A DNA stretch of 64,000 bases from Ginglymostoma cirratum (taxonomy: Eukaryota), in assembly GCA_024137785.1 (NCBI GenBank), contig JAHRHZ010000282.1, forward strand, positions 434,001 through 498,000. Reading direction: 5' to 3'. Shown in pieces: positions 10,850 through 49,179 of this stretch. Positions within the stretch are counted from its first letter, which is position 1. Each line of letters starts with the position of its first letter. The notes under the pieces are model-generated. The model saw only the letters and a list, made by a program, of their open reading frames with translations. It was not told the DNA's origin and did no database searches. The position numbers and the translations under genes are program-made.

Positions 10850-13750
10850 AAGAAATTTCTCTTCATCTCAGTCCGAGCTGCATTGCTGACATTCCTGAAT
10901 TTGTGACTTCGTTTTTACTGGCATACTAATAAATGGAAATACAATATGCTTCTTTACCTCTGTTAAAATTATTCACAATTTTGAACACCTCAGTAAGGTC
11001 ACCTCGTAATCTTCTCTGCTTCAAGGAGATCAGAACAATCTCTCTAATCTTTCCTTGTATCAAAGATCTTTCATTTATGGCATTATTCTTGTAAATATCC
11101 TTTTGGCGTGACATCATTTCCTTGCTTTTACACTCTATATCTGTTTTTTATCTCAAGGATCTTATTAGCTTTCGTAACTACTTTTCCAACTTGCCTGGCC
11201 ACTTTCAGGGAGTCATGTTCATGATTCCCGAGATCAGTTCTCTCCTGTACTCCCTGAAAGGCATACTATTGAACCTATTTTGCCTTTCGGTGTTTATTCT
11301 ACCAAAATACATTACTGCACATTTCGCTGTATTAAAATTTGTCTGCCAGTTACCAGCCCATTTGGCCAACTTATCAATTTTCTTGTGAAGTCATTCAGCA
11401 TCATCCTCACAATTCATCACTCTTTCTAACTTAGCACCATCTCCAAATTTTGAGAATTTTCCCCTCAACACCCAACTTTAAATCGTTTGTGTTAATAAGT
11501 GAAAAGCAATATCCCAACACCATTTCCAAGGGAACGCCACTTTCAACTTGTCTCCAATTTAGGAAATGCCAGTCTACACCTACCCATTGTTTCATATTCT
11601 TTAGCCAACTTCTACCCATGATGCCAAAGACACATCAATACCAAATATTTCTAAGTCGTTAGTTAACCTGCCATGAAGCATCATATCATCATACTATTTC
11701 TGACCCTCCAAATGTACAACATCCACACTACTGTCATCTACTGCCTGTGTCACTTCGTCAAAGAAATGAAGTAAATTTGCCAGACATGAACTGCCCTTCA
11801 GAAAACAATGTTGACAGTCTGGTATTACATTATTTTTCTCTAACTGTACATTAACCACGTCCCATTTTGGGACCTCCATCAGTTTTCACACTCCTGACGT
11901 CAAGCTGAAAGGTTTGTAATTTTGTGGGTTGTTCTTTGTCCCTTTTTGAAACATGGTGTCAGATTTGTAATCCTACAGTCTCACAGGACTACTCATGTGT
12001 TCAGAGAGGCCTGTAAAGTTTGTTTCAATGACTTTGCAGTTGCTCCCTGAACTGCCTTGGCAATCTAGAATGCATCCTGCCTGAGCCTGACAATTTATCG
12101 ACATGGAGTGCTTCCCGTCTATTTAACATCTCTTTTAGTGTGTCACTATACTTTTCAGTTGCACAAAACCCAAATTGCCAACCAGGCCATTGTCACCATA
12201 TTCAGATTTGTAAAGATAGAAGAAAAATATCCATTTAGTACCTCTGTTATATCCTTTGCATTGGTGACCAGCTTACCCTGCTTGTTCCTTATGGGTCTTA
12301 CTCTGTCTTTGACAAATATTTTGCAATAATACGTTTGAAGAACATTTTACCAGTTGATTTAGTGCAGCCTGCATTACTTTCCTGTGGATTCTTCTTAGTC
12401 TTCCTCATTTCAGCCTTGTCCTCTCTCCTGGATTTGATTTCGTCTTCCTGATTTCTTTTTATTTTTATTCTGGTATGCATCATATGCCAGTTTTATCTTC
12501 CTTATATTCTCATCAACACTCTTAGTCATTCAGGGTACTCTTGTTTGGAATAATCCGTTTTTATTTATCATGGGTACTTACCTAGCTTGTGTCCTGTTCA
12601 TGTTTTTTTTTGAAATTCTCCCCTTTTTACTCCACTGTTTTATTTACCAATATGTGTTTCCAAACAAAGTGTTCCAGTTCAAATTTTAAACACCTAAAAT
12701 CTACCCTTTTCTACACTGGGATCTTAATCTTTGACTGATTTGCATCCATTTCCAGATTAATATTGATTTTATTATTTTGTGAATGCTATCTACCAAGTGC
12801 TTCCACATTCCAACTTTTTACACTTGGCCTGCCTCTTTTTCTACGACCAGATCCAGCCCAATTCCCTCACTGGTGGGACTGGAAATGTACGATCAAGAAA
12901 GTTCTTTTGCACATATTGGAAAAATATCACCCCTTTCGTCCTTCACACCCTACCTTTATCTCAGCCTACCCTAAGGTAATTGAAATCACAACTGAATTTT
13001 CCCTGCCAATTTCCATAATAAGCATACAAATGTTCTCATTTACTGCCTCCCTATTATTTAGAGGACGGTAATAAATGCCTAATAAGATCACTGTTCGCTT
13101 TCTGTTTATTGCCTCTGAGTATATCGATTCTAATTCTGGAAATGTATTTCTTTGAAGGGCAGTAGTATTCCCTTTGACCAAAACTACTGCATTTCCCTAC
13201 CTTTTACCCACCTTTGTTTCTATTGAAAGCTTTATGACCAGAATGTTAATTATCCGTTCCTTTTATGGCTTGAATCACGTTTCTGAACTATGCTGTAAGC
13301 CCCTAGAGAAATTTCTGTTTATATTTCTCCAATTTTCCTCATGATACTCCGTGCATTTACGGACATGAAATATAACTGTGCCCTTATCTTTTTCTTACCC
13401 AATCGAAAGTTGTCATTTCTTTATTGTCTGTCAACAGGCAAGCCTTATCTCACCTTTTCACCCCGATTCACCACTTTCTTTTCGTTGTTCTCTCTGGTGC
13501 TTCCAAAACTAGGCCCATTTGTCAACCCACACCCCTGCCTTACAACTTTAAATTCACCCTTGCTACAAGATTGATTCCCTAAACCAGGCGATTAGTTCCT
13601 CTTCTGTGCAGGTAATGTCCATTTCTCCAGAGGAACAATGATTCCAGTATTACGAAAAAATATTAAATCCCTCCCCTTCTACACCATCCCTGAAGCCACG
13701 CATTTACCTCCCTGATCAGCCCTTACCTAAATTGTGAAGATCGTGACAGA
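10850..13750 (-). mobile_element. CR1-type LINE, endonuclease + RT remnants
   Basis: LLGIYYRP (endonuclease), QHCFLKGSSCLANLLHFFDEVT, VESGVPLE.VLG, RRLRGDLTEVFKI. Many stops. Confidence 0.88.
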
Positions 13751-16944: not shown

Positions 16945-19196
16945 TTTCCAAAGGTTGTTGTCGGATTATTCATCTCCTCTCTGCTTTTTCTCTGAGTCAC
17001 TATATAGATTCATAGATTCAAGCGTTGTGCAACAGCTCAGGAGCTGAAGCATGTTTCCACTTTCTTGCCGAATGAATCTTGAATCATCGAAATTGGAATC
17101 CCAGAAATAAGGTTCGTTTGAAATGTTCACAAAGAGGAAATCTATGATATGTCATCCACAATGAATCTTCTTGGAATGGTGAAGAGTAAATCAATGGACT
17201 TTCTCCGGTTCTCCATCTTTGGAGCACTCCAATTCTCCCCACTGTTGGTGCTAGCCAGCAGTCTCCTGCTGACCCAACTGGCTGCAAAATCGTGTCTGAC
17301 AGGCAGACCATGAAGCAGTAAAATCAATAAGAATGGCAGACCCAGATTAAAAACACATGCCAAGCTATTGTAGACTGTTGATACTAGTGACCTATAGAAT
17401 TTTGACTTCACATTGCGAAAGTACGGCACCTTGTTCATTATATTGAGTGGTTCGTGTAAAAAGTACCAAAAAATGTCTTTTAAACAACTCACTAAACTGA
17501 CTGATACTTTGAGCATAGCCGCTGTATCTCTGTACAAAATTTTGTTTTCAGCTTCTGGGAACAAATGGCTAAAAGTCGATCGAAGGTGAAAGAAATGGTT
17601 AGTCAGACTTAACTCTTCATGGCTACATAGATGATTACAGCACTGACAGTACAGGTGGGAGTCGTGAACATGAAGCAAACGGGGAAATAAATGCGAGTAA
17701 TCCAATTTAACATCACAGCACTGATAACTACCAAAAGTCAGTGACTGCCAGATACCGAGTGATACATCCAGAACGACAACATCATTCGCAGTAGGGGATC
17801 GCAATTGCCATTAAATTTACTGAAAGCAGCAAAGAAAAAAAAAACTAAGCTCCTAACGAGACACACGATTGTGCAAGGTTTGCTATATTGACATCGTTTC
17901 TGGACGGTAACTGAAGCAAATATTTATGATCCTGCAGCGAAATCTCCATCTCACCAATAAAAGTTTTATCTTGCATTTATGTAGCACCTTTAACATAATT
18001 GTCGTAAAGTGCTTCAGTTGAAAATTATAGTGTAAGTTTTAACGCCGTCATAAATTTGATAAACCACTTATCTCTTTTATTTGAACAATCAGGTTTGTGT
18101 TATCATGTTGTATTCAGGCAACCTATGATCACACTTTAAAAGCATCAAGAGAATGTCAGCTTCAAGAACGTTGATTTAGCTGCCCTATGGCTTCGACATT
18201 CATGATGCCTTTAACTAAAAAGTACAATAATTTACTCATTAGTAGGATATTATCTTTAATGGAGGGCCTGTTAATTTTGCCTCAAAGTTTTTGCCCACCA
18301 AAAAAAAAATTCCGAAACGAAATTCTTCAACTCAAGTCAATGTTATCTAAATTCAGAGGGAGATGATAATTCAATTACGAGGCTCTAGGTTGAAAAAGAG
18401 GAAAAATGTCAAGTCATCATAATTCCAGAGTATCATCAGACAGCCCACTCCTGAGAGAAATGACTATTAGTGTTTCAACTTGAGGGTCACCACACCTCAA
18501 GCGACTTAACTATATTTGTTTCCAAATATGACAATAATAAGACAGGCAGAGGTTTTTTTAATCCAGAAAATCCACAATCCAACTTCATCTTTGATACTTG
18601 GTTTGAAATACAGACTTATGTCTTCGGAAAGAATCAACTGCTATTGTGGAATTTGAACTCATGGCAGAACCCTGTGGAAAAACAATCTAGCAACGTCAAC
18701 CTATGATTCACTTAAAATTATGTGGTTCCATGGAAGATGCATGCTGAATTGTAACTTCCAATGCTAAGCATTGAATTTCCACCCATGAACTCTAGATTTT
18801 GAATAATTGGCCAAATACTCATCTGTCCCTTCAACCAGACAAGAGATATTATCAGAGCTAACAAGATGTAGAGTTGGATGAACACGGCAGGCCAGGCAGC
18901 ATCAGAGGAGCAGAAAAGTTACTACTATCTCTAATGGATGTTATCATCCTGAGCTTTAACTATCACAAAGGCTTTATTTAGAAAAAATAAGTGTTGAAAT
19001 TTTCCTGAGCAGATCGCATTCCTGTCGACTACTGTGGTTATTATTTCTCACTGTCATTTGTCACTGTCAGCTCTCACTTTATAAAACAATGATTTTCAGA
19101 ATTACTTATTTAGAACAATGATTCACCTGGGAATCTGATTGCAGCAAGAATTGGAAAGTAAGTTCCATAACCTAGAACAATCTTCGGTCCGTGCAT
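16945..19196 (-). pseudogene. GPR139/GPR142-like GPCR unprocessed pseudogene (exon 1 19196-19127; exon 2 from 17819 to ~16945)
   Basis: Exon 1 is MHGPKIVLGYGTYFPILAAIRFP + G|GTGAAT, with acceptor ttcag at 17820. Exon 2 reads VNLMAIAIPYCE*CCRSGCITRYL, then frameshifted blocks LPFLLILLL, PKMENRRKSI.LLFTI and QESGNMLQLLSCC that match the intact gene. Confidence 0.9.
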
Positions 19197-22200: not shown

Positions 22201-24677
22201 GAATATTTTTGACTGACTTGAAGCACTGAATGAATTGTCATGATTATTTTTGGTGGATTGTGGACAGCGATGACTGCAACCGCCGAGAAGTGACATCAAA
22301 TCCCACCATGTTGCAGTTTCCATTATCTTCGATATTACCTCAAGCCTGTTGAAAAGAAAATAGAACAGCTTTATTATTATGATCTTCGATTGCAGCTTTA
22401 GGTTTGGACAGATATAGATCAGGCCTGATTATGTGAGCGGACAGCTTAGGTATCAGACACCCCAGAATAGGCCGTCCACAGGAAAATTAGTGTGTGCAAC
22501 TTCATAAATTCATCTAAAGCATAATTGCTTTTACAGATAAATTTCACTATTCTTCTTACATCATGGACCCTTTCTCTGCGTCTCTCCCTCTGGCATTCGT
22601 GCATTCTCTCTGTCTCTCACTCTCTGCTGCACACAAGGTTTAAATGAAGGCAAGTGATGTGAATTGGTGACCTGCAGAATTAACTCAATTTTACACGCTC
22701 TTAATACAATGTGGTAGTGCGCTTATTCTGAGCCGAGAAGTCTGAGCTCAAGGCACAGCTGTTCAAGAATTATGGCATACATCTTTGAGCAGGTCAATTG
22801 TAAAATATCAAAATTTGACGCAAGACACTAGAAGAATAAACAACATATGACGCAGTGTGATTCAAGTAGAAAAATTGCCGATGCAGGCAATGAGTGACTA
22901 AGATGGATGCATTGGTCCAGACATGAATTCCAATTTCCTTTATTTGGAATTATTTGGACGAAAAAGTATGTATTGTTCCAGACATTAAATCCACTTACCT
23001 TTAAATCGGGAATTACTTCCCGACCTTTCCCTCTTCAGAACTGAGTATGAAAAATCTGAGGCAGTACATTGAATGTTAATGTTTGAGAGAAAGGGCTTCA
23101 GTAATTTATGTACGTTGCTCGTCAGAGATGAGATTGTAAGATTGAGAGGGTAGAGCTGTGAATGGTCGAAATTTTGGCATTTTTCTGGACAAGAAATGAA
23201 TCAATTTTGTTTTGAACACTATTATGATGTTTGCATGAAGGTAAATGATCACCTGTGATCATATTGAATTTTTGGAACAGGCTCGAAAGTTCGACTGACC
23301 TCCCATGTTAATAATTTCTTTGTTCACTTATGAAAGACTTTGAACTATTTACCACCTGAAATAAAGGTGATCAGCTACAATAGATTGAGCCTGGTGACCT
23401 CTTTTCTTTGGGAAACACGGAACCAGGAGGCAACTTCATAAACATATTTTAAATGATTAACGGGTTCATTGAAACGAAAGCGGAGGCACATTATTTTGAG
23501 CATGAGTCCAAACAAAGAGAAATCACCAAAGGAATTACTTGCAGAAGAGAGTATACGAGGAAGAATATTTCTACTTGGAAACACATAAAAACGTGCAACT
23601 CATTGAGAAGTGGAGTGAGTGGAGACAAAAAATGCAGGAGAGTGAAAGGCGTGGAGAAACACCTGACACTGCTGGTAATAGTTCACTGCGGTAGAGCAAG
23701 AATCGGCTGGTGTGGCCTATAAACACGTGTTTCCCTATTTGGGTCGAATAGCCTATCTTGGACCAGAAGACCGTTTTACATGTAAAATTCAGTGAAATGT
23801 ATGTCCCTTGAACAGGTCAGACGATCAACCAATGGGTTGTAGGGAATTGAAATTGTCAGAAATGCAGAAGCAGCAGTTCCACGGAGCAGGGAAACCACAG
23901 AGCAACCTGCAAAAACGGAAACTAACCAACGGTTGAGAAACCTTAGGGAATATTGTTAATGTGATAAAACTTCAAAGTAGGTGATGAAATAACATGAACC
24001 TTCATATAAAAGTTAAATTAGTTACAAATTAAAAGTTCGACCTCCTTGTTAGATGGAAACAGTCAAATAGAATGAAAGACAGGCAGAAGCTCTCATGATG
24101 TGTTAAAGTATCAGAGAAGCCTTATGTTTCACGACCTATGCTCGTTATCACTGTACCTATATTTTCTGGCCGATATTCCTATGGAGTTGTATCACTCTCG
24201 GAATTATTTGTTTGGAAACTGAATGTCTTATTGGCGTTAGAATGGTTCTTTCGGTTTATCTTTCCAGAAGTAAAATAGAAATAGAAGTTTCTAAATATAG
24301 AATCAGACAACATGGAGACTTTATTCGTACATTTTCCCACTCCCGAAAGGTATAACTCAATTAGTTCTGGTATAGTTGCTGCTTCCCCAGAATTCACACA
24401 TTCGATTTGTTCCAATATTTGTCCAACCAAACTTGAAATTCATTGTCAGATCTACGCAGATCTGTGTAAGAGTTGACAGTCTATTTTCTTCATCGAGTCC
24501 TGCTCCAACGATGATCTAGTAAGCTTGAAGTTAAGATAATTTTCGCGACATACGGATTAATTCTTCAAATTAAAGTATTTCCTTCATAACAATTCAATTG
24601 CCAAATAGTAAAAAGAAATAGGCTGCATATTCAGTTCTCTGGTATTCCAGCTTCATGCTTACAAAGCTTCATTATCA

Positions 24678-24716
24678 GGTTTTTGTACACGCCTCTGTGC
24701 TGTGTATAGATGTGTG
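24678..24716 (-). other. 23-RSS of the supporting V-delta pseudogene
   Basis: Minus strand: CACACAT, 23 bp, then ACAAAAACC (perfect nonamer). Confidence 0.85.
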
Positions 24717-25029
24717 TGCTGAGTATCAATTCAATGCATATTAATACACAGTGGAGTCTCTGAGTTGTATTGTCGTGGTCTTTAACTGGATGATTTTCAC
24801 CGCGGGATCGATGGAAGCAGAAATTCTTCCTCTGGCAGTATTTTCTTTATTCTGCTACTGAATTGCTAACTGCGCCTCTGAAGCATGTACTTCAGAGTTT
24901 GTCCTAAGGACTGATGGTACAATTAAACCATATACAGAATGAACCCTAAATACTCACTGATTAAAGTAACGGTGTCGCAAGCAGCAGAGGTTTGTACAGG
25001 TAGACGCCGGGGCAACAGCGAACTAGAAT
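24717..25029 (-). pseudogene. Leaderless supporting TCR-delta V (STCRdV-type) pseudogene
   Basis: SSSLLPRRLPVQTSAACDTVTLISEYLGFILYMV*LYHQSLGQTLKYMLQR / QNKENTARGRISASIDPAVKIIQLKTTTIQLRDSTVY*YALN, then the RSS. The acceptor appears mutated (ccacaa). The frame fits a phase-1 splice from the J at 27774. No leader exon seen nearby. Confidence 0.8.
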
Positions 25030-25911
25030 TTGTGGTACATATAAAAAGTTTGTTTAGCAGCAGCTATTCAGAAAATGTGAACACAAAGTTATGAGCAGCT
25101 GTCTTATTAAGGTGTGAAGCAGGTTCGAAATGTAATAAAAACAAATCACAGAGCATGGAGATGTTGAGCTTTTTTTAAAACAAGAAAAGCAAACTTCTCT
25201 GATCTGGTTAGATGTTTCAAGAATAACGTACAAATGGGAATTAAGAAAAGAAAGAATCAAAAACAGTGAATGATTCTAGAACACAGGGCTATTGCTTTGC
25301 AAAGTACATGTCTGTAAAATATTTCAACAGTCATTCTCTTCACTGAGACAATCAATCTCAGAATTAGTTGACGAATAGTAATCCAGTTCTGTTACCTTAT
25401 TCATTCATGAAATCTGGACAACATTGATGGAATCAACCTTCATTGCTCATCCCTAGTTGCCCTTTAGATGATGGTAGTGAACTGTCTTCTTGAACTGCTG
25501 CAATTCAACTGCAAATACACACACAACGTCAATAGGGATGGATTTTCCAGATTTGAACTGGAGACAATGAAAGAATGGCAACACATTTCCACGTCAGGAT
25601 GCCGAGTTGCTTGGAGAGGAAGTTGCAATTGCTGGTTTTCCTATGTATTCGTTGTTTTTATTACATCACAGCCCAAAGCAAGATTCTACTGAATGCAACT
25701 TGATCCAACCCGACAGCCGTCAAATAATCGTACAATAGAGCTACAGGACCATCCGAGAACAGACGAAGGCCATTAAACCCGTCATGTATGTGTTGAATCT
25801 CTGAAGCAGAAATTCACAGGCGCGGACTAACCAAAGTATTGTCACCTCTGCGCTCTTATAATCTTTCTATGACTGCTGATAAAAAGTGTTTTGTATTCTT
25901 CACTGCTGTAT

Positions 25912-26697
25912 TGTTAGTTTCGTTTTTGGAGACCCTCATGGACTTGATGCAACGACAAGACACTGTCCTGTTTAGAAAAACACAAATCCTTTATTACAAA
26001 GCAAGTACAAGCAGTGGAGGATCACTGTACTCAACCTGGCACAGAGTGCAGAGTCTCATAAGCAATTCTCCCGGAGCAGCAGACAGGCCCCACTTTTTAC
26101 ACCTTCTCGATTGCATCGTGCATAAAGCAATTTTACATCTCACAATGGCATGTTACATGAAACAATCACTACATCGGACAATGACATGATAACACAAACA
26201 ATTACTGCATCGAAAACATAAAGAGAGCAGGATACAGTGTCGATTGTTCGCAAAGTGACTGCTAACTTCAGGAGGCGATTTCAAGTTGCCGAAGTGACTG
26301 AATGTAATTTCAAGCTTCCGAAGTGTCTGGCTTGAACAAAGGTCAGTGTCCTGGTCCCTTTTGCAGAAACAGAAGTTACATTCTTTACAGGATTTCAGAA
26401 GTCTCACACCTTTACAAATGTTGCCACCTAATCTTATTTGAGACTGCTTCCACGTACCGCTGTGCAGGAAGATAAAGATTTACAATGTTTATATCTAATT
26501 CTATTCAGGCAGGAAGCTTAAGGCAGTTTCTTTTCTACTTATGTATGGGAAGATAAGGATTTACAAACTTTTACACCTAATTCTAGTTGGGCAGGAATTT
26601 TTAAGGCAGTGCCTGCATGCCTCTGTGTAAGCAGATAAGGAGCATTAATTTATAGAGAATATAGAAATCAATGGGATGTTATCCCAATAACATATTA
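25912..26697 (-). mobile_element. Solo LTR, 786 bp, TSD GTAT
   Basis: Colinear with 58612-59397. GTAT flanks both ends. Minus-strand AATAAA near 25990. Confidence 0.85.
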
Positions 26698-26999
26698 GTA
26701 TTAAGCAGCCTTTCTCGCTTCAGGTATCTGTAGACAAACATCCAAAAACCCTTCTGTTTCTCTTAGCTCCTTAGCGTCCTGTCCTACATGAGGACTCCCT
26801 TGTCTTGTTACTTCTTCCAAAATGCATTACCTTGATAAAAATCTTCACGGGGTGTGGGCATGCTATTTATGTTAACATGCCTTGTCCATTTCTCACTGTC
26901 TGATGGGTAGGTAACAGTCAAACACATTCCTATGAGATTGGACTGGCGTGTCGGCCAGACCAGGTAAAAATGGCCGATTCTTTCCCTTAAGGACATTTT

Positions 27000-27670
27000 C
27001 GGGTTTAGATTCCATCTGCCATTGATCTGCCCATCTAACCAACCCGTCTATACATTCCTGTAACTTAAGACTTTCTGCCTCACTGTTCAGAACCCAACAG
27101 ATCTCTGCAGTACACTGTTGTGCACTGGCCTCCGGTCACAAAAACAACCTTCTGTTAGCTACCTCTATCTTCCACCACGAAGCCAAACTGGATCCAACTT
27201 CCCAAGTTGTCCTGGATCCCATGAAATTTTACATTATTTATCAGTAACCTGGTTTGTCAAAGGCTTTGCTAAAATACATATAAAATGCATCGACAGCATT
27301 GACTGTATCTACACACACGATCACCACCTTGAAAAGTTCAATCAATTGCTAAACATGACTTCCAACAAACAAAAATATGCTGACTGTCTCTCATCAAACC
27401 TTGTGTCTCTATGTGGAGAGGAGTTTCGCCTTCAAAATATTCTGTAGTAGTTTCCCTGTCACTGATATGATACTCGGTGGTCTTCAATTTCCTGGTTTAT
27501 TCATACCATCCTTCATAAAATTGGAGCCATATTAACAGCCTCCAGTTCCCTGGGAACTCCTGTGTGGCCAGAGTGAAATTAAAGGTTTGGGTCAGGTCCT
27601 CCTTGAATTGCTCTCTCTTTTCCCACAACAGCTTTGGATACAACTCACTCAGACGTGGGAATTCCTTCTC
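27000..27670 (-). mobile_element. CR1 RT fragment, decayed
   Basis: EFPGNWR; remnants of the DFSKAFDK-type motif. Confidence 0.7.
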
Positions 27671-27773
27671 TGACCTCCCACAGGAAGATTGAAGTAACAT
27701 AGTGCTGAAAAATAAGCTGACAATGAATATTAATTGAGACAGACGGTAACAGGCGGCATTAAGAGTCATTTAC

Positions 27774-27864
27774 TTGCTGCGACAGTCACAACGGTACCAG
27801 ATCATTTCACAGTATCAATTTTCCATCACAGTCTCACTGCTCTCAGTCATCCAGTACAAGAATC
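27774..27864 (-). pseudogene. J segment pseudogene with 22-bp-spacer RSS (NAR-TCR J type)
   Basis: Minus strand: nonamer GATTCTTGT, 22 bp, heptamer GACTGTG, then WKIDTVK*SGTVVTVAA + A|GTAAAT donor. The TGA sits at the first G of the GxG motif. Confidence 0.85.
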
Positions 27865-27887
27865 CCCAGTAGTTTAGTCTGACGACT

Positions 27888-29459
27888 GAACATAGAACAT
27901 AGAAGATAGAACATTACAGCGCAATACAGGACCTTCGGCCCTCGATGTTGCGCCGACATGTGAAATCAATCTGAAGCCCATCTAATCTACACTATTCCAT
28001 TAACAGCCATATGTTTATCCAATGACAACTTAAATGCATTGAAAGTTGGCGAGTCTACAACTGCTGCAGGCAAGGCATTCCATGCCTTACTGCTCTCTGA
28101 GTAAAGAATCTACCTCTGACATCTGTCCTGTACCTGTCACCCCTCAATTTGAAGCTATGTCCCCTCGTGTTAGCCCTCATCATCCGAGGAAAATGGCTCT
28201 CACTGTCCACCCTATCCAATCCTCTGATCATCTTGTATGTCTCTATTAAGTCACCTCTTAACCTTCTTCTCTGTAACGAAAACAGCCTCAAGTCCCTCAG
28301 CCTTTCCTCATAAGACCTTCCCTCCATACTAGGAACATCCTGGTAAATCTCCTCTGCACTCTTTCCAATGCCTCAACATCTTTCCTATAATGCGGCGACC
28401 AGAACTGTACACAATTCTCCAAATGCGGCCGCACCAGAGTTTTGTACAGCTGCTACATGACCTCACTGCGACAAGGTTCCAAAGCTCAATCCGTCTACCA
28501 ATAAAACCTAACACACCGTAAGCCTTCTTAACAACCCTATCAACCTGGGTGGCAACTTCCAGGGATCTATGTGCATGGACACCGAAATCCCTCTGCTCGT
28601 CTACACTGCCAAGAATCTTACCATTAGCCCAGTACTCTGTATTCCTGTTACTCCTTCCAAAGTGAATCAGCTCACACTTTTCCGCATTAAACTCCATTTG
28701 CCACCTCTCAGCCGAGCTCTGCAGCTTATATCTGTCCCTCTGTAACCTGCAACATCCTTCTGCACTATCCACAACTCCACCGAATTTAGTGTCATCCGCA
28801 AATTTACTAACCCATCCTTCTAAGCCCTCATCCAGGTCATTTATAAAAATGACAAACAGCAGTCGCCCCAAAACAGATCTTTGCGGTACAACACTAGTAA
28901 CTGAACTCCAGGGTGAACATTTCCCATTAACCACCACTCTCTGTCATCTTACAGCTAGTCAATTTCTGATCCAAACCGCTAAATCACCCTCAATCCCATG
29001 CCTCCGAATTTTCTGCAATCGTCTAACGTGGGTAACCTTATCAAACGCTTTACTGAAATCCATATACACCACATCAACCGCTTTACCCTCATTCACCCGT
29101 TTAGTCACCTTCTCAAAGACCTCAATAAGATTTGTGAGGCACGACCTACCCTTCACAAAACCGTGTTGACTATCCCTAATCAAATTATTCCTTTCTAGAT
29201 GATTATAAATCCTATGTCTTATAATCTTTTCCAACACTTTACCCACAACCGAAGTAAGGCTTATTGGTCTATAATTACCAGGGTTGTCTCTACTCATCTT
29301 CTTGAACAAGGGTCAACATTTGCTATCCTCCAGTCTTCTGGCACTCTTCCTGTAGGCAATGACGACATAAATATCAAAGCCAAAGGCTCTGAAATCTCCT
29401 TCCTAGCTTCCCAGAGAATCCTAGGATGGATCCCATCCGGCCCAGTGGACTTATCTATT
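27888..29459 (-). mobile_element. 5'-truncated CR1 LINE, best preserved copy in the window
   Basis: Long RT ORF pieces (NYRPISLTSVVGK, DFSKAFDKV, SKFADDTK, RRLRGDLIETYK) and a (TTCTATG)n-like 3' tail. Confidence 0.95.
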
Positions 29460-29800
29460 GGATGTGAGAAGATAATTGGTTCTGCCTAATATTCCTAAGA
29501 TTTGGATCAATTAACAATATTCCATATTTCTCAGATCCTATTAGCTCAAACTTTGATTTCTGAGAGTCTGAGATTTTAGCAAGATGGCCCAGGAACATGG
29601 ATCGTAGTTTTCTGCATCATGAAAATGGAAAAGAATATCACAGAATTACGACACCAAAAAGGAAGATGAAAGGAAATTGTGCCACATGTACAGATGTGAA
29701 AGAACGCAATTCACAATCTGGAACCACAAGCACCATGTTTTAATTGTACCTATATTGCAGTTGTTCAGGTTTCATATACTGAGGTATTCTAAATTGCGTG

Positions 29801-30198
29801 TTATAGCAATCAAAACGAGCTTTACAAGTCATCGGTGGCGGTGTCTTCAACTCGCACATCCCGAATATCCAGTAAAAATGTCATATCTTCTTCATTCATT
29901 GAAAACCCCATATGTGGCTATCATATACACTAGTGATGGCGAGAGACTAACACTCCTCCCTGATGATCTTTGTTTGGCTCTGACTCACTGACTGACGGAC
30001 ACAGCCTGGAAATGAAAAAGAAGGACGTTTAGTGGGCAATCAGAGCAAATCAAAACAACGAAGTGCACTAACCTAGCGGCGACATCGCAATAGCATGGTC
30101 ATGGGCAAAATTACATTGAATCCTAAGAGCAGCCTTTTGCTTCATAGGTACTCACGGGTTAATCAGATACACAGAGCGAAAAGAACAAAGATTCCCGT
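29801..30198 (-). pseudogene. NAR-TCR V (IgNAR-like V) pseudogene: leader 30198-30156, V exon 30005-29801
   Basis: Leader (ACG)GIFVLFALCI*LT + C|GTGAGT, acceptor tttccag. V reads QSVSQSQTKIIREEC*SLAITSVYD ... SMNEEDMTFLLDIRDVRVEDTATDD/CKA. There is an extra FR1 Cys, the CDR1-FR2 region is deleted, and the RSS is degenerate (CACGCAA). Confidence 0.8.
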
Positions 30199-33100
30199 GT
30201 TTCTGTCGCTTGCAGCTGATGGTTTATATGACTGGCAGCTGGGGACTGCTTGCCAGAACTGTTCTGGGAGACTGGACTTCGGAGCTGCACTGAAGTACTT
30301 GAAAGGATCGAGCTGATCTCCACCGGCACATTCAGTGAGCTTATTCATGGATGGTATGATTCAGATCACTGACTCTATGTTATGTGAAAACTGACAGGTT
30401 GAAAGAGTGGTAACTTAGCTTTGTATCCAAACACATAGTCCGTGATCCCGATATAAATAGTACTCACAGGTTTGTCTGAAGGACAAGGGATGGGGATAGT
30501 CTTTTTCAGTCAGTCAATGGAGCTGCGTTAATTTCTACCATCGGAATGAGGCGGGGGAACGATTCTTATTCTTTTATTCCATATACCTTATCCGACATTC
30601 ACAACTGCACAGACAGAGGAAGACATTGGATCCAGAAAGACAATAGATATTCGGGTAACTTCTCAAAACAAAAACAAATTATTCTTTGTGTTAGATGAAA
30701 CTTTGTCTCAGCTATTGCGGGACTGGAACTCAATACATTACATTGATATCACTGTATTAAAGTTGTGCCATAATATAAATGGTTGTTTTACATGACCATA
30801 CTTCTGCTTGTATGACACGATTGCCCTGCCACAAGGACATGGCAATATGCTTTGCCTTTGTTTCCATTTAACAAGATACCAGCACTTGCACTCGACTATG
30901 TCTGAGCTAACATTATGCTAGGCCGGGGCGTCATTGCGAGCGCAGCACAAAACTGTGTCACTTCTCATATTACTCAACTGCTGTGGAAGCTCTGATTATA
31001 ATGAGATCTACATCAGTTATTACCGCACTACAGCATGTCCTACTTTACATTTCATAAATAGCGTCTCTCTGCAGTTGGTGGAATAATTTCTAATGCAAGA
31101 TTTAGTTATGCCCTTTCCACACGTGGATTTGTGTAATTTGATCCTTTGCTATCAACCTCGAGTTCATTCTGAAGCATTTTGGAATAACATCTATTTATGT
31201 GAAACAGGTCTTGAGAGCATAATACTGACCTAAGTGGTATGCTTATATGATCATTTTTATTTCAAAAATCAACTATAGTGAAAAGTTGTTTATTTTTCCC
31301 ATGAGTGTTGACGGGCAGACATACATGGTTAAATGAACTGATAACCCGAGATGAGCCTGCAACAAATTCTGGAGCACAATTATTTAGCACTATTACTGGG
31401 TTGCTGTTAGGGTTCAAAGCTCTTGAGATGTCCAGAGACTTCATCTGTTACTTGATGTGATGTTGGGTAAATCGAATTGGCTGAGGCCCAGTATTTATGA
31501 TGATCAGCGCAAATCGCATAAAGAGCATCCGTCACTTGATTTGTAGGTAGAATATAAAACATAGAACATATAACAGCACAGCACAGTACAGGTCCTTCGG
31601 GCAACGATGTTGTGTCGACCTATTATCCTACCCTAAGATCAAACTATACTGCATTCCCGCCATTTTACAATCATCCATGTACTTGTAGCCATATTTGGGA
31701 GAATAACACCACCTTGCTACAAGGCCAGTATCAGTTGATATTATCGTGTGTATCGTTGTATGGTTGTAAGGGCCGCTAATAGGTCTGTTCTGTCATTCAA
31801 TAAGATCATGACTGATCAGATTGTGTATCAAATCTGCATCAAGTAGGATATACTAACCGCTTCGTACATCCTGCCAAATCACATTTGCAGATATTATTTC
31901 GAAATGTTCGAGAATGAAGATTTCTAACAAAGGAAAATGATGCATAGCTGTTCACTTTACAAATAAAAAGTCCTGGAGACAAGCGATAAACTATTTTCTG
32001 AGTTTCAGGTGGATATCCTACCACTTAATTTGTGGACGGGACTCTCCCCAGTAATGAACAGTATTGTAGATGTCTCTCCACAAGTGTAATAAGGATTTGT
32101 GCTTGGGGGTCAGTGGTGGAGGTTTGGGTACAGGGGTCTTGGCATGTCCTAAACCCGTTTAGCACGGACTATGCTCGTCATGATAGACCAAAGCCTGTGT
32201 TTGCCAGATGGAAGTTTTTACAAGGGACATATTATTGACAGCCTGGTATTTTTCTCAAACTTTGATCCAGATGCTACTGTTAGTAGAGCTTGCTCAGGAA
32301 GCTTGTTCAATATGGGGCACCAAGAAGAATGGTAGGCAGTAGGTAGATTCAGAATGTTATTATGTTGCGGGGAGCATAGACAGTTTCAACGAAGTTTTGC
32401 GTTTTCATCTTTGTAATGTAGAATTTCTTTTGCAACAGGAGGAAACCAGAGGAAGTATCTCAAGCAGAAAGCTATCGTTATGATTTAGATATATATTTTT
32501 TTCGATTTGGATGTGATTGTCAACTGTACTTGAGTACAGCAATAGGGGAATATAGATTAAAAACGTTCAAAGTTGCCATTCTCTAGCACCACATAAGTAC
32601 AAAAGAAAGAATAAAAACAGAAGCATAAATAAAAGAAACAGCCAAAGAAAAGGAAACATCCAATTCAGTCCCCCACCTCTGCTATTAGATGTCACAGCCA
32701 GAAAAATAACAAAACTACAAAGTTTCCCCCTAACGCTGTGAATTCTCAGCTGAACGGATTCTTTGAACGTCATCGAGCACCACGACAGGCAGAATGTCGC
32801 CACCTCCGATGTCAGGTACCCACGTCCAATCATGGCCTGGAGCTGCGCTGCCGCTGCTGGATCTCTATCGCTTTTATTCAGCATCTTCTTGTCTGCATTA
32901 TTCTTCTGCTATATTTTCCCAAATTCTTCTGCAGTCAATTGCATGTCAACAAGATACCTGTGTCGTCATTCATGACAGAATAGTGCTCTATTTTCTGCTG
33001 CCGAGTATGAAAGCCCAGTTCTGAGTTCAAAACAGTTTTAAAATGGCAGTGCACAACTTTGATCCAGGAAGATTGATTATCAGATATTTCCTGGCTTTGA

Positions 33101-36032: not shown

Positions 36033-38311
36033 ATATACTACTCTTTATTATCAATTTCATTCTTGGACACAGGTCTCTCCACCAAGGGCGGACGTCTCAG
36101 TAACTCACTCTACTTTAAGCCCCCGGACAACCTCACGATGCTGCACTTCTCTTACTCCCACCCTGAACATATTTTAAAAAACGCCAGCACCTACGGACAA
36201 GTGTTATGCATACACAGGGCCTGCTCAGATGATGGAGAATGCGACAGAATCCTGAAGGTGTTGAAGAATGCCCTCGTAAGAAGAGGTTACAATGTTCAAT
36301 TCAGCGATCGCCAACTCCGTTATGCCACAGCAACAAAAAGCATAATGACATCCTCGGAAGACAGACAAGAGTGATGACCGATAGAGTTCCCTTCGTCCTC
36401 CAGTACCTCCCGAAGTGAAATGAAAAACTACGCCATGTTTTTGGCAGCCTTCAACACATTATCTACGACGATGAATACCTCACCACTATCTTCCCTATGC
36501 CTCTATTTATCACCGTAAAACATTAAACAGACCATTGGTCGCAGCAAATCGCCCAGCCTTCAAGACGGCATCGACGAAAATACCACAGATACCTGACATG
36601 GCAATGCCTGCAATGCCTACAAAGTATAGATAGGTTCTAAGCAAGATTTCACACCTAAAATGTTTTTTCCCGACCTGAGCTATCACCTGTTGTATACATT
36701 GATAAAACTTTAATTACCTTGAGAAATTGACTTGAGAAGAATCTGGATTTTGCATTTAGTAGTGTCCTTCCTAACTGCTTAAAGATTCAAAAAGAGACGT
36801 CCAGTTTTAGGTTTCTTTTTTTACCTTTGTGTTCATAAATTCTACGTCTTACACCGTCTCTCTCACAGTACGCCTGAGGAAGGAGCTGAACTCTGGAAAC
36901 TTGCTTTTTCAAACAAGCCTGTTGAACTATGACCTCGTGTTGTGTGATTTTGGACGATAAACTCAGGCTGTGAGTCTTGGTATTTTCGTTACCAGAATAA
37001 ATAGTCGTCGCTCCAGGTGGCGTCCAGGGAACAGCTTAAAATAAACTGTTCTTCTTCTGTTTAAACGTCTGAGGGCATCGGCTGAGTAATATAATCTCCA
37101 TTGCCCAGATCTATTAAAAAAGCATCATGTTTAATCTGGAAACGATTAGCGTGGTGGGTCTTTCAAATTTAGATTCAAACTATGTTCGGGAAATGAGAGA
37201 AACGATGGAATCTGTTTAGTCACAATTACCTGTCAGAAATGCACCACCCTCACCAGGTGTACTGTACTGGTCTATGAAAGGAGCGTTAGAGAGTTGGAGA
37301 TTTGAGGATGCTGGTTATAATCTTTACCTAATCAGTCTTCTGTCATGTCTCATCTCACTGTCTTTTGCACACAGAATGCAATGAGATGGATAGGGAATGT
37401 TCTAGCTCAGATTGACTGGAAGCACTTCGAAATGGGTTAACACAAGCGATCATTTGGGGTGGATTTTTCCACTTCACGTACACGGAGCTGCTTTGAAATG
37501 CATGGCTGATTTTTAAATTCATTATTTGATGGCACACATACACTGTTGGTTTGATCACCATTTATTTCTTATTCCCAATTTCCCATAGGAGACGTTGGCT
37601 ATCTGCCTTCCTGAGGCCTTATTATACATGGGAGGAGGAACATCCACACTTTTGTTGGATGGAGGCTGGGGTGGTGGGGTGGGTTGTATGATTTCCAGCA
37701 TTCCAGCAAAACTCAGGATGATATCTAACTTGGATATTAATTTGCAGGTGGCAGAGTAACCCTGAATCTCGGAATTTTATCTTGGATTTGGTTTACTTGA
37801 GCCCCATAACATCTTTGGAATTTCACTAATAAAATCGCTGGGGCACTGATAGTCATGAATCTCATAATCTGGATTCCAGATGAGTTTCATACAAATTATT
37901 CCATTTTTTTTGTTTCGAAATTATCCACACATCTGTCATAATATAAGGAAAATTATCTGCTGGTTTTGAGCATACTATTAGGAAGAATATACTATTTTTG
38001 AAACTTAAACGACGTTTGGAGCAATGTCTTCGACAGTGGTTTACACCTAAAATGCTGTTTATTTTCTATCTCCTGGGACTTGCCCTCTATAATGCCTGTC
38101 AACGTTGGTTTTATAATCGATAATCTTAAGATTCGAGATTTGCATTGGGAGAAAACAGCGAATGCAGCTTTGTTACTTTCCATGAATTTGCCGCTCATTT
38201 ATTCACCATGCCAAGCAAAAGAGCGAATGGGAAGCATTCAACTAAAATGCACCCTTAGCCCCAGGTTGAGTTCTGGGTGTGTTCCCGCTAACAGTAGCTC
38301 AATAAAGTCGT

Positions 38312-38930: not shown

Positions 38931-39904
38931 GATAGAGAGAGAGCACGAGTGGTAGAAAGTGAAAGACAGATATTCCTTTCTGTTGTCATTTCAACAGGTC
39001 TATGGTTGGTGCCAGCCAGTTTCTGACAGTGACTGTTTTGTCGTTAGGTGTCAACATCCCAGAAAATTCCGATTGTTCAGAATGCCGCCCATCAGTCTCC
39101 CTCTGTGGCCGGGAGAATTTAAAGTGTTCTCTCGACACCATCATTGAGTGTCATTTTCTCGATAGCGAATCTTGATCTGAAAACCACAGCCTGTTTCAAC
39201 CAACTCCTGTCTGTCTTCGGCGTCATACCCAGGAAGACCTGCAATGACCTTTTTTCCACTTGGAGTTCTGATGTTCTTTGTATTGTGTAAGTTTAGTTTT
39301 CTAATCATACTTCTTGTTTGACATATCACGCACTACCTTGTTGTGTTTGAGTTCCGTGTCATTAGTTATAGCAGTTTAGTAAGAGGATCAGAACTCACAA
39401 GCTGATCAAGTACTGTACCTGGAAAGGGAACTAGTAGAATTCGATTGTTGGTTTTGCATTTGTGCTGGGGATGGTATAGTCTGGTATAAACAGAAGCTGA
39501 CAGCTCTCCAACATTTATTGACAACATATCGCAGGAAATTAGATTATTTGACGCTACCCACTTTTCGTTTGACAGAGCAAAAAAGTCCAAAACCATTTCT
39601 ATAGTTGATAACGTAGTTGTGGACGCTGCAGGGTACAACTGTGCGACGTAGGCATAGAGAGAAAAGCAATGGGACGGACCACACAACATCTCGCGTTGCG
39701 CTGTCTGTCTGCCTTCCATTCAACATTTCTGAAACCAGAATTTTACAAATTATATTGATTTCGGAATTTTGTTTTTCATCGCTTAAACTTACACATTAAT
39801 TTACAAAATATTATGACTATGAGAATCATATTAAATCAGACTTTCTTTGTATGCAATCGTAAATGTAAATAATAGACAGAAAAACAGATCTATCTTTTTA
39901 TGGA

Positions 39905-42420: not shown

Positions 42421-43317
42421 TACTATGAAGTGATATTAATTCTGTGCGAAGGAAATAGTTGCACTTATGAGTGCATAGTGTAGAAGGGATTGGTAACGTT
42501 CGATTAGGTAAGGATCGGGATCGGAAGCCAACATGTATCACAAAAAGATTTATAAAGCCTACTGGCAGTATCAATATAATTCGAAAGCACAAACCAATTA
42601 TGCAAGCGATCTCATCAATTCCTGTTCAATGTTTACGTTTCATGAACTTTTAAAAATATTTGTGATTCTTTTGCAATCGTACTGAATTGCCTCGCTTTCA
42701 TGATATGAGAGCGCCCTCTGGTGAGTACTAATTCGAAGTCTCAGCACGGATTTTTGTCCAAGTCCGCTGCTTCTTTATATCAGAGTGAGCTGCATGACAC
42801 AGATATACAAGGTGCAGTCAGAGATGAAGCTATCGTTGAATTTTAGTTCAGTATCTTGTCAGTTTTTATTAAATGTAGAAGTAACTCAGTCATAGATGGC
42901 TTGCTCCTCTGCACATTGCTCCCAATAATAAGCACAAAATGTGGAGACTGCCTGAGCGCTGACTGTACAAACGTGCATAAAGGTTTGAATTACATTTCTT
43001 CAAGTTGCAGTTTAGTGTGACTTTCTTTGCATCTACTACTGTTTTTCGGCATACAGTTGTTGCACTACATCATGCTGACTCCTTTCTAACATATGAAAAG
43101 TATTTAACTAAAAAAGACATGAACATCAACATCACCATTAGTATTATTCGACAAAGAACAACTTTTGCTTTGTAACCCTCAGCTCTTTACCGAGAAGGAG
43201 AGACTTACTGAGAATGGGTACAATAACGAGGGGATGTGAGTATTTTCTCCCTGTTGATTTTTTTGCTTTCTACCACTCTGGTGCAGGAAATTCCCTGTCA
43301 AAGCAGAAATACAGTTC

Positions 43318-47731: not shown

Positions 47732-48397
47732 ATGAACCAGCTGAGACTTCGGATATTACTCAAAACAAGTAAATTCTTGAGTTCAACAATTTCAGTGTCA
47801 GTTTGTTTTATAAAAATCCACGCTAACTACATACAAACATGTTAGTTACTTCATATTCATTCCTCACAATTGCAGTTCTCACAACTGGCAACGTATTTTA
47901 AAATCTACACACGGATGCACATGATGGTCTTAGTAACATGATTTTAAATATGTTTTTTTTTTCTGTATATCAAAACCGTTCCGTTACCTGTTTATATTAG
48001 GTGCCATAACTTGGTGATAAAGTATTGATATTCTGCATTTATAAATTTCTGAAAGTCTTAGTCGTGCATATTCAGTCTTCCAGGAGCCAGTCTCAATGAT
48101 GAAGCTTCAAGCTGATGCGGTGACTATTATTTATAGTTATTTGATCACTGCTGCAACATAAATGTGCAGCTATACTGTCAAGTTCGAGTTAAAGCTCGGT
48201 ATTCTTGATCTACACCTTTAACTGTGGTAATGTTATCAGAACTGAGGGTGTAGGGCCCTGGTTTTCTGCTAATATTGGCCGCGTGAAAAAAGAAGAGAAC
48301 TTCCCATTCATTATCTGCAGTTGGCTGACAGCGCAGTGTATTACTGCAGACTGAGACAAACAGTAGAAGGGACCAGAGGGAGCCTCTTCCAAAAACA
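47732..48397 (+). pseudogene. TCR alpha/delta V pseudogene (probable leader 47732-47768; V ~48055-48358; RSS 48359-48397)
   Basis: Leader MNQLRLRILLKT + A|GTAAAT. V reads SVFQEPVSMMKLQADAVTI... VGPWFSANI ... LQLADSAVYYCRLR. RSS is AACAGTA, 23 bp, CCAAAAACA. Stops, frameshifts and loss of the first heptamer C. Confidence 0.85.
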
Positions 48398-49179
48398 CTC
48401 CACTTTGGGTCAAGTTGAACGGCTAAAATACTGTGGAGGAATGTACATTGATTAACAGTCATTAACAAACTAATTGCAACCGAACAGCTTTGAATATAGG
48501 AGTTAAATTTTAGATTAAAATTAATTCTAAAGTGAGGAATTGACAGGAGTAATACAATGCAGTTATTCATCCTCACTTCAAATGCATGTTCGCTTTTGCC
48601 TGTTCATTTGTCACCTTTCCCATCTGTGTTTGGTTACTGCTAGGAGAGAATGACATGTGAAAATCTTTCCCTGATGTGTCTCGCGTAGAAATTTTTCAGA
48701 ACTCCCCGTCTGCAAATTCAGACAGGCTAGTGAGAGTGACTGACAAAGAAACCTATAAATCTAATTTAAAAGAATATGTTTATTTCACTGAAACTGCTTA
48801 TTTCAGGTCGTTAAACAACTCAGTTCGAGATCAAGCTGAATCTCAGGGCAATTAAAAATCGACTCGTTTCTCTACTCAGAGACTTAACGGACTCTCAGTT
48901 CAGTTAGTTATAACCTACCTGTGCTTCCTCATCGTTTTCTACTCATCAGAGTGGACCATTAAGGTCCTTCTTCTATGTAACAAACAAACACTTGTGGTTA
49001 TCGACGTCATCAGATCCATTTAATCCTATCAAATGATCCACAAGAAGTGAGATCAAATTAAACACAGCCAATGCTGCCCGCTTTTGTCATGCCTGATTTT
49101 ATGTAGATTTCTGACTCACAGAAACATCCCTTGCAATCGGAACCAGCAGCGATGTGGCTCTCCATTCTCTCTCTGGTCA

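What the first reader, a model, noticed from the sequence alone, without database searches (positions are those of the whole stretch)
24678..30198. Fossil NAR-TCR cassette: leader, IgNAR-like V, J and leaderless supporting V-delta, all missed by the ORF track
Seen in the sequence, in order on the minus strand: a leader exon; a V ending DIRDVRVEDTAT..CKA with an extra FR1 Cys (TGT 29952-29950); a J with a 22-bp-spacer RSS; and 2.7 kb later a second V with no leader, whose frame continues the J by a phase-1 splice and which has its own 23-RSS. Established knowledge: this is the layout of shark NAR-TCR, a doubly rearranging TCR-delta chain with two V domains joined by an inter-domain disulfide. 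A 22/23-spacer J is IgH/IgNAR-like, because conventional TCR-delta J segments carry 12-RSS. NAR-TCR itself is already described. What may be unannotated is this copy, in which every part is separately inactivated: ATG>ACG, stops, an internal V deletion, GGA>TGA in the J, a lost acceptor and no recognisable D.
Basis: partly seen in the sequence, partly recalled or inferred. Interest (0 to 1): 0.75.

Follow-up and report, generated by a model that had tools for sequence, protein, structure and literature searches.

The report
Dead shark two-domain T-cell receptor cassette
This is a long-dead, heavily mutated copy of a known shark immune gene unit (NAR-TCR, a T-cell receptor chain with an extra antibody-like domain); it is real but ordinary genomic debris.

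Summary
On the minus strand lie a leader exon (30198-30156), a NAR-type V (30005-29801), a J behind a 22-spacer RSS (27826-27774) and a leaderless V with a 22/23-type RSS (25029-24717). A piece of the second V searched against 1.84 billion representatives gave 9 hits; 8 are named shark models in which it is the V following a NAR-type V and J. Relatives include a white-shark locus that PMC12227049 Table S1 labels NARTCR. Each piece scores better against these models than against any PDB TCR, IgH or VNAR chain. The copy is deader than reported. The first V lost its B-strand Cys and its RSS. The second V lost both canonical Cys, the Trp and the CDR1 Cys that partners the retained a-b-loop Cys. 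No D scores above chance, and a younger LINE splits V from J. It is therefore a pseudogene of NAR-TCR descent, not a working member. All other V segments found in the window are also broken, including a second NAR-TCR V stub. A doubtful pseudogene cassette is already flagged in print. Low interest.

The parts
30156..30198 (-). Leader exon of the NAR-TCR V; start codon reads ACG, internal TGA at 30165-30163, intact GT donor at 30155
   Evidence: best of 7,063 sites; 7 of 14 identical to the bamboo shark model P0008
29801..30005 (-). NAR-TCR V exon (V1), pseudogene: a-b-loop Cys kept (29952-29950), stop at 29949, B-strand Cys reads AGT (29931), about 29 codons deleted plus two frameshifts, F-strand Cys kept but out of frame (29826)
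29767..29800 (-). Remnant of the V1 RSS: heptamer-like CACGCAA at the register expected from gene models that read through the signal; spacer about 18 nt and nonamer degraded; no longer a credible RSS
   Evidence: sequence; His-Ser/Arg-Asp read-through starts 8 codons after the Cys in 9 of 10 models, here CAC starts 23 nt after it; the mapping of that read-through to a heptamer is inference
27890..29455 (-). 5'-truncated LINE with a reverse-transcriptase domain and a short tandem tail (CR1-type by my recall of the family), inserted between V1 and J about 25 nt from the J nonamer; ends approximate
   Evidence: Pfam RVT_1 E 3.2e-28; 2 stops + 3 shifts in 488 codons; ends
27827..27864 (-). J RSS with 22-nt spacer; the CAC end next to the coding segment is intact, 1 heptamer and 2 nonamer mismatches
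27774..27826 (-). NAR-TCR J segment; TGA at 27804-27802 where the references have Gly; phase-1 GT donor at 27773
   Evidence: 12 of 17 identical to P0008 and P0038; median 8 of 17 over 63 references
25912..26693 (.). 782-bp LTR-like repeat (TG...CA ends on the minus strand) in the J-V2 intron; an insertion, not part of the original unit
   Evidence: 90% identical to 58612-59393; ends; no clear target-site duplication
24717..25029 (-). Supporting TCR-delta V (V2), leaderless, pseudogene: acceptor CAA, B-strand Cys AGT (24958), CDR1 Cys ATT (24940), Trp TTG (24922), F-strand Cys TAT (24740), stops at 24925, 24857, 24743 and 24728, one frameshift at about 24868
24678..24716 (-). V2 RSS: perfect nonamer, heptamer with 3 mismatches; reads as 23-spacer mechanically, or as 21-spacer if the heptamer is placed by homology at 24714
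   Evidence: homology register read by eye from reference read-throughs (inference)

Best explanation
A pseudogene of an elasmobranch NAR-TCR cassette (leader, NAR-TCR V, [D], J, supporting V-delta), lying among dispersed TCR alpha/delta V segments. How the ancestral unit worked (established for the family, not shown for this copy): RAG joins the NAR V to its own D and J, and separately joins the leaderless supporting V to the D and J of the TCR-delta locus. The J donor then splices in phase 1 to the supporting V, giving a leader-V-V-C delta chain. The outer V binds antigen unpaired, and a putative disulfide links its a-b loop to CDR1 of the supporting V. What this copy does now (shown from sequence): it cannot make that chain. 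The start codon, V1 RSS, D, V2 acceptor and all reading frames are lost, and 5 of the 7 structural Cys/Trp positions checked are changed. Inferred history: the unit arose by cassette duplication, died long ago, drifted neutrally, and later took a LINE between V and J and an LTR-like element in the J-V2 intron. The order of the lesions cannot be read.
For: Architecture and splice phase. The V2 piece hits only supporting-V-type sequences among 1.84 billion (9 hits, 8 named shark models). The reference family is NAR-TCR: its first V matches VNARs best in the PDB (17 best and 22 of 27 hits named VNAR or new antigen receptor), its second V plus C matches TCR-delta chains, and member P0036 is LOC121270138, labelled NARTCRdV in PMC12227049 Table S1. 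Diagnostic features from PMC1845163 hold in the references: a-b Cys in 57 of 58 (my pattern allowed only C or F there) and CDR1 Cys in 60 of 62. V1 FR3 matches the reference consensus at 17 of 20 positions, against 10-12 of 20 for four VNARs (by-eye count). Quick tree: V1 inside the NAR-TCR V clade (SH-aLRT 99); V2 among supporting Vs, in an 87-support group with 10 carpet-shark sequences; end branches 0.42 and 0.46 against a median of 0.068. Near-invariant columns changed: 5 of 20 in V1 and 15 of 34 in V2 (each count includes one stop and two positions at a frameshift), against reference medians of 0% and 6%. The LINE frame is much more intact than random DNA (cost 6.5 against 11-20.5 in 20 stretches), whereas the V exons are not.
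Against: The supporting V's CDR1 Cys, a defining feature, is absent (ATT, two changes from a Cys codon). The Trp-less WYRK feature cannot be tested because that stretch is deleted. The tree held no VNAR and only four poor outgroup rows; it was the quick, unfinished version, and support for the supporting-V group as a whole was 76. The PDB hit lists showed no shark conventional TCR V, so that comparison rests on the whole-library search, run for one V2 piece only. Pfam found 0 families in 4 frames, and a word-indexed search with V2 found nothing. A weak leader-like stretch lies 202 nt upstream of V2 (no ATG, one stop), but 25 of 198 random windows score as well. Linkage to D-delta, J-delta or C-delta is not visible; there is no C exon in the window. 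The references are mostly automatic gene models, not curated cDNAs.
Confidence: 0.95

Rival explanations
1. A decayed IgNAR (antibody) V-D-J cluster that happens to lie next to an unrelated conventional TCR V pseudogene.
For: NAR-TCR V and VNAR are relatives; bamboo shark IgNAR clusters use 22-bp-spacer RSS (PMC8692893 figure legend); IgNAR and TCR V genes are linked in sharks (PMC12227049).
Against: V1 has the a-b-loop Cys where 4 of 4 displayed VNARs have Gly, and neither V1 piece hits any PDB VNAR at E<=10. The J is followed by a V in splice phase, and that V hits only supporting-type Vs. IgNAR C exons were not searched for directly; the C search used TCR C domains only.
Confidence: 0.02
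2. The unit is dead as a coding gene but still used: its J and V2 RSS act as RAG substrates (decoy, deletion or inversion boundary), or its V sequence serves as a template for diversification.
For: Both RSS keep the CAC end; the V2 nonamer is perfect and the J RSS has 3 mismatches. Shark TCR genes are AID targets (PMC5931798 passages).
Against: RSS preservation is no better than drift allows: the V2 heptamer has 3 mismatches and probably a 2-nt spacer deletion, and the V1 RSS is destroyed. PMC5931798 reports no support for mutation at NAR-TCR. No expression or rearrangement data were available.
Confidence: 0.03
3. The lesions are assembly or sequencing errors in an intact cassette.
For: None directly; reads were not available.
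Against: Most lesions are substitutions at conserved codons, plus a deletion of about 29 codons. The LINE inside the cassette keeps a far more intact frame than the V exons, so the error rate is not locally high.
Confidence: 0.01

Closest known systems
NAR-TCR (NARTCR) cassette of cartilaginous fishes: NAR-TcR V with its D and J plus supporting TCR-delta V (Criscitiello et al. 2006, not held; features taken from PMC1845163 and PMC5931798 passages)
   Same: Order leader-V-J-leaderless V, phase-1 J-to-V splice, a-b-loop Cys, and up to 60% protein identity of each V to shark double-V models. The 5.5-kb span is within the 3.8-12 kb of the seven white-shark loci labelled NARTCR in PMC12227049 Table S1.
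   Different: Every part is inactivated. No recognisable D, V1 RSS destroyed, CDR1 Cys and canonical Cys/Trp lost, LINE and LTR-like insertions.
White-shark LOC121270257, listed as 'NARTCR NARV-TCRdV' with '(pseudo??)' in PMC12227049 Table S1
   Same: A doubtful or pseudogene NAR V plus delta V unit of 5.1 kb on the minus strand, among TCR alpha/delta V genes of both orientations.
   Different: That locus is intact enough to carry an NCBI gene model; this copy has no usable ORF. Its sequence was not compared here.
IgNAR V (VNAR)
   Same: Nearest solved relatives of the V1 family; IgNAR clusters also use 22-bp spacers.
   Different: VNARs have Gly at the a-b-loop position (4 of 4 shown) and match V1 FR3 at 10-12 of 20 positions, against 17 of 20 for the NAR-TCR consensus.
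Mammalian TCR-mu
   Same: Works alike: an antibody-like outer V on a supporting V (PMC3457774).
   Different: Convergent; uses VH-related V domains; no sequence evidence of membership was sought or seen.

Membership tests
NAR-TCR gene lineage (descent; filed here as a pseudogene) | First V of the IgNAR-related NAR-TCR V family | tested here: met
   36 of 62 identical to P0012, shuffles at most 36 against score 135.5; inside the NAR-TCR V clade at 99 in a quick tree without VNARs; family matches VNAR in PDB
NAR-TCR gene lineage (descent; filed here as a pseudogene) | Leader exon ahead of the NAR V | tested here: met
   Best of 7,063 sites on the family leader profile; start codon mutated
NAR-TCR gene lineage (descent; filed here as a pseudogene) | Cys in the a-b loop of the NAR V (PMC1845163) | tested here: met
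   TGT 29952-29950 aligns to the reference Cys; 57 of 58 references
NAR-TCR gene lineage (descent; filed here as a pseudogene) | [quoted passage not shown] | tested here: inconclusive
   The stretch lies in the deletion of about 29 codons
NAR-TCR gene lineage (descent; filed here as a pseudogene) | Own J segment splicing in frame to a second V | tested here: met
   J best of 127,880 positions; phase 1 at donor 27773 and at 25029; acceptor now CAA
NAR-TCR gene lineage (descent; filed here as a pseudogene) | Second V of the supporting V-delta family | tested here: met
   9 hits in 1.84 billion, 8 named shark supporting-type models; 53.8 and 56.1 bits against at most 22.1 in PDB
NAR-TCR gene lineage (descent; filed here as a pseudogene) | Second V has no leader (PMC1845163) | tested here: met
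   No ATG-started leader within 400 nt, while two conventional V relics have one; the one relaxed candidate is at chance level, 25 of 198 windows
Functional NAR-TCR cassette (not filed here) | Cys in CDR1 of the supporting V, partner of the putative inter-domain disulfide (PMC1845163) | tested here: not met
   ATT at 24940; Cys in 60 of 62 references
Functional NAR-TCR cassette (not filed here) | Canonical intradomain Cys pair in both V domains, and Trp in the supporting V | tested here: not met
   V1 B-strand Cys AGT; V2 Cys AGT and TAT, Trp TTG
Functional NAR-TCR cassette (not filed here) | Usable V RSS and a D segment between V and J (separate V(D)J rearrangement) | tested here: not met
   V1 RSS decayed; no 12/12 D above shuffles. 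That the family's D carries 12-spacer signals on both sides is inferred from the 12/23 rule and recalled, not read in a paper here
Functional NAR-TCR cassette (not filed here) | Open frames, start codon and splice sites | tested here: not met
   ACG start, stops in all four parts, three frameshifts, acceptor CAA
Functional NAR-TCR cassette (not filed here) | Linkage to TCR-delta D, J and C, and expression as a V-V-C chain | not testable with these tools
   No C exon in the 64 kb; no eukaryotic genome or transcript collection available
IgNAR V-D-J-C cluster | VNAR-type V without the a-b-loop Cys, J followed by C exons | tested here: not met
   Cys present; J is followed by a supporting V
Conventional TCR alpha/delta V (for V2) | Own leader exon and closest similarity to conventional V families | tested here: not met
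   shark conventional V sets were poorly sampled (one search returned none)

The most novel reading that the evidence does not exclude
The dead cassette is not inert: its J and supporting-V recombination signals, which keep their CAC ends and good nonamers while the coding parts have decayed to background, are still cut by RAG. It would then serve as a decoy or as a deletion or inversion boundary inside a dispersed, mixed-orientation field of V pseudogenes, or as a donor for templated diversification of live NAR-TCR genes.
Probability: 0.04. Interest if true: 0.55.

Novelty: new member of a known kind. Interest (0 to 1): 0.17.

Why it matters
It matters little as biology: NAR-TCR is described from sharks, rays and chimaeras, and antigen-receptor loci routinely shed pseudogenes (the latter is general knowledge). 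It has modest value for annotation and evolution. It shows that whole NAR-TCR cassettes duplicate and die as units among conventional V segments of either orientation. It marks this window as part of a cartilaginous-fish TCR alpha/delta V field made of relics, and it is invisible to Pfam and ORF-based annotation. With orthologous DNA it could date one cassette loss.

Tried and rejected
Pfam on 4 single frames of V1 and V2: 0 families at E<=1. PDB phmmer: no hit at E<=10 for two V1 pieces and the first V2 frame; one search was in the wrong frame and was redone. Word-indexed protein search with V2, longer proteins only: 52 candidates, none scored. A search meant to collect shark conventional TCR V and VNAR outgroups returned 7 proteins; the three named ones are NAR-TCR-type fragments, so the tree lacks those outgroups. 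No ESM Atlas result was obtained for V2. D search: nothing above shuffles. A D-like stretch near 29732-29678 (one half-site with an 11-nt spacer, the other with a short spacer) was considered and left as chance. A leader-like stretch at about 25292-25231 was rejected as chance. An FGxG motif at +23271 was rejected as a J: no RSS was found next to it in the scan, the donor is out of phase, and a few such motifs are expected by chance. The Gly count at the J stop position (63 of 63) is circular, because my pattern required Gly, and is not used as evidence; the J frame was wrong and was redone. TCR C-domain search: none (best E 0.92). Rfam: 0 matches. Rows dropped: 8 unnamed database proteins were left out of all counts. 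Of 66 named models, patterns recovered 58 first Vs, 63 Js, 62 second Vs and 36 leaders. The careful tree did not finish; the quick one is reported. The primary papers PMC1458790, PMC7909615 and PMC7039070 are not held; they may give the RSS layout, D spacing and known pseudogene cassettes. The PMC3964593 supplement search returned no occurrences. No structure or complex prediction was run.


Full report
1. Observation. I read 24000-31500 on the minus strand and translated each part. All listed features are present. The leader runs 30198-30156 with ACG for ATG, a TGA at 30165 and an intact phase-1 donor; a 150-nt intron ends in a normal acceptor at 30006. V1 runs 30005-29801. The J runs 27826-27774 behind a heptamer-22-nonamer signal with 3 mismatches, with TGA at 27804-27802 and a phase-1 donor. 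V2 starts 2.74 kb later at 25029 in the matching phase, after CAA instead of CAG, and ends at a signal with a perfect nonamer (24686-24678). The RSS consensus used is recalled. The RSS matches alone are near chance (5 sites, 4 independent, with at most 3 mismatches; 2.0 expected from 30 shuffles). The coding parts are far above chance: leader best of 7,063 sites (11.0 bits, next 2.2), J best of 127,880 positions (35.8, next 4.9), V1 score 135.5 and V2 score 218 against shuffle maxima of 36 and 34 (25 shuffles each).

2. Identity. Single-frame searches of Pfam, of the PDB and of the word-indexed protein set mostly failed. An unindexed phmmer of 60 residues of V2 against 1,835,955,588 representatives gave 9 hits at E<=0.001. 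Eight are named RefSeq models from Mustelus, Scyliorhinus, Cetorhinus, Rhincodon, Heterodontus and Chiloscyllium, and in each the match is the V that follows a NAR-type V and a J; one hit is unnamed. A search with one of them returned 68 proteins among 490 candidates, 64 of them named shark, ray or skate models. One, P0036, is white-shark LOC121270138, which PMC12227049 Table S1 labels NARTCRdV; four more carry NCBI descriptions that match other NARTCR rows, by name only. The first V of this family matches VNARs best in the PDB, and the second V plus C matches TCR-delta chains. PMC1845163 gives the defining features: NAR-TcR V has a leader and an a-b-loop Cys and lacks the Trp of WYRK; the associated delta V has no leader and has a CDR1 Cys; the two extra Cys form a putative inter-domain bridge. 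The references show the a-b Cys in 57 of 58 (pattern allowed C or F only) and the CDR1 Cys in 60 of 62.

3. With the same queries, the same program and the same nominal database size, the V1 pieces score up to 28.9 and about 22 bits per domain on the references (46 and 63 of 69 hit) and have no PDB hit at E<=10. The V2 pieces score 53.8 and 56.1 bits (66 of 69 each), against none and 22.1 bits in the PDB, where human V-delta-1-type chains give 16-19 bits. As a control, the conventional V relic at 49941 hits mammalian TCR alpha chains in the PDB about as well as it hits the references. In FR3, V1 matches the reference consensus at 17 of 20 positions and four VNARs at 10-12 of 20; those VNARs have Gly where V1 has its a-b Cys (by-eye count). 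A quick tree placed V1 inside the NAR-TCR V clade (99) and V2 among supporting Vs, in an 87-support group with ten carpet-shark sequences; it lacked VNARs, had only four weak outgroup rows and did not finish its careful search. No ATG-started leader lies within 400 nt upstream of V2, while two conventional V relics have one. One relaxed candidate 202 nt upstream is matched by 25 of 198 random windows.

4. State of decay. V1: stop at 29949, B-strand Cys reads AGT, about 29 codons deleted, two frameshifts. V2: B-strand Cys AGT, CDR1 Cys ATT, Trp TTG, F-strand Cys TAT, four stops and one frameshift. Near-invariant columns are changed at 5 of 20 (V1) and 15 of 34 (V2), counting stops and frameshift positions, against reference medians of 0% and 6% and maxima of 10% and 18%. 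End branches are 0.42 and 0.46 against a median of 0.068. Gene models that read through the V RSS place the heptamer 24 nt after the F-strand Cys in 9 of 10 cases, and two of them imply a 22-nt spacer (back-translation is inference). Here a CAC starts 23 nt after the Cys, but the rest of the heptamer, the spacer length (about 18) and the nonamer are degraded. With 22-type signals on both V and J, a 12/12 D is needed under the 12/23 rule (established knowledge). None is found: the best pair has 12 mismatches of 32, the mode of 60 shuffles. TCR D segments are 12/23-flanked, which implies 12-spacer J segments in conventional delta loci (PMC3457774, platypus), and 22-bp spacers occur in bamboo shark IgNAR clusters (PMC8692893 legend).

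5. Insertions and order of events. A 5'-truncated LINE of about 1.55 kb (RVT_1 E 3.2e-28) sits between V1 and J. It needs 2 stops and 3 shifts over 488 codons (cost 6.5; 20 random stretches cost 11-20.5), while the V exons are no more open than random DNA (3 breaks in 99 codons and 3 in 59). I infer that the LINE came after the cassette died. Whether it removed the D cannot be told. The J-V2 intron holds an older LINE scrap (by eye) and a 782-bp LTR-like repeat, 90% identical to 58612-59393.

6. Surroundings. Every other V found is broken too: a second NAR-TCR V stub at about +3530-3830 that shares upstream sequence with this cassette (32 of 37 nt) and keeps the a-b Cys but has no leader exon, J or supporting V detected; conventional V relics at about -37115-36930, +39244-39670, -43080-42788 (weakly supported), +47840-48370 and +49802-50242. 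No TCR C exon and no Rfam match was found. PMC12227049 Table S1 shows the same pattern in the white shark: seven NARTCR loci of 3.8-12 kb interleaved with TCR V genes of both orientations, one marked 'pseudo??'. The host is an elasmobranch, and the nearest sequences lean to carpet sharks; this is weak and was not pursued.

7. Mechanism and verdict. The ancestral unit worked as NAR-TCR is described: two independent V(D)J rearrangements and a J-to-V splice give a three-domain delta chain with an unpaired outer V (PMC5931798, PMC6795676, PMC3457774 passages). That is established for the family and inferred for this copy's ancestor. The copy itself is shown to be unable to encode or assemble that chain. 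By descent it is a NAR-TCR cassette (confidence 0.95); as a functional cassette it fails every test. Residual use of its RSS is not excluded but has no positive evidence. I found no description of this particular copy in six searches, but the window's source is unknown to me and the three primary papers were not held, so absence from print is not established. Interest 0.17.

8. What I saw of each paper. PMC12227049: passages, supplement search and all of Table S1. PMC1845163, PMC5931798, PMC6795676, PMC3457774, PMC3149040 and PMC8692893: passages only. PMC3964593: search listing and two supplement searches with no occurrences. PMC1458790, PMC7909615, PMC7039070: nothing. Figures, including the alignments of PMC1845163, were not visible. 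The label CR1 for the LINE and the RSS consensus are recalled.

Noticed in passing
window 3530-3830 (+): Second NAR-TCR V stub in the opposite orientation: shares upstream sequence with the cassette (32 of 37 nt, E 7e-7 pairwise), keeps the a-b-loop Cys, ends after CDR1; no leader exon, J or supporting V detected.
   Followed up: partly
window 49802-50280 (+): Conventional TCR alpha/delta V pseudogene with a leader, a stop, a frameshift and a 23-spacer RSS at 50242; best PDB hits include TCR alpha chains.
   Followed up: partly
window 39244-39700 (+), 47840-48400 (+), 36930-37115 (-): Three more decayed conventional V segments; the first has an intact ATG leader with a GT donor, and the one on the minus strand is truncated.
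   Followed up: partly
window 42749-43200 (-): Probable further V relic with a leader-like donor and a 23-spacer RSS at 42787 (3 mismatches); sequence support is weak, PDB E about 1.
   Followed up: partly
window 25912-26693 and 58612-59393: 782-bp LTR-like repeat pair, 90% identical, with an internal 60-nt duplication; no clear target-site duplication.
   Followed up: partly
window 27890-29455 (-); related stretches at 56773-57588, and the pair 8010-9756 / 11153-12925: LINE fragments: the insert between V1 and J has an RVT_1 domain and is 64% identical to 56773-57588; the pair near 8-13 kb is 65% identical and was not identified.
   Followed up: partly
window 29678-29732 (-): D-like stretch with half-site remnants on both sides (right: CAC heptamer, 11-nt spacer; left: short spacer); not better than shuffles.
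   Followed up: yes
window 24678-24704 (-): A second heptamer-like CAC inside the V2 spacer gives an 11-spacer signal with the same nonamer (2 mismatches); meaning unknown.
   Followed up: no
P0002, P0007, P0010, P0011, P0018, P0020, P0039, P0041, P0052, P0054, P0057 and others (reference models): 10 of 62 supporting-V models replace the canonical B-strand Cys with Trp or Tyr while keeping the CDR1 Cys; these may be pseudogenes or a variant that lacks the intradomain bond.
   Followed up: no
(public annotation): Public databases name these NAR-TCR models 'uncharacterized', 'DSCAM-like', 'Ig gamma-1 heavy chain-like', 'lachesin-like' and similar; none of the names shown says NAR-TCR, and many models join V to J or read through the RSS.
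   Followed up: no
window 50463-50569: 107-bp inverted repeat (84% self-complementary) next to the V relic at 50 kb, partly shared with 18851-18911.
   Followed up: no
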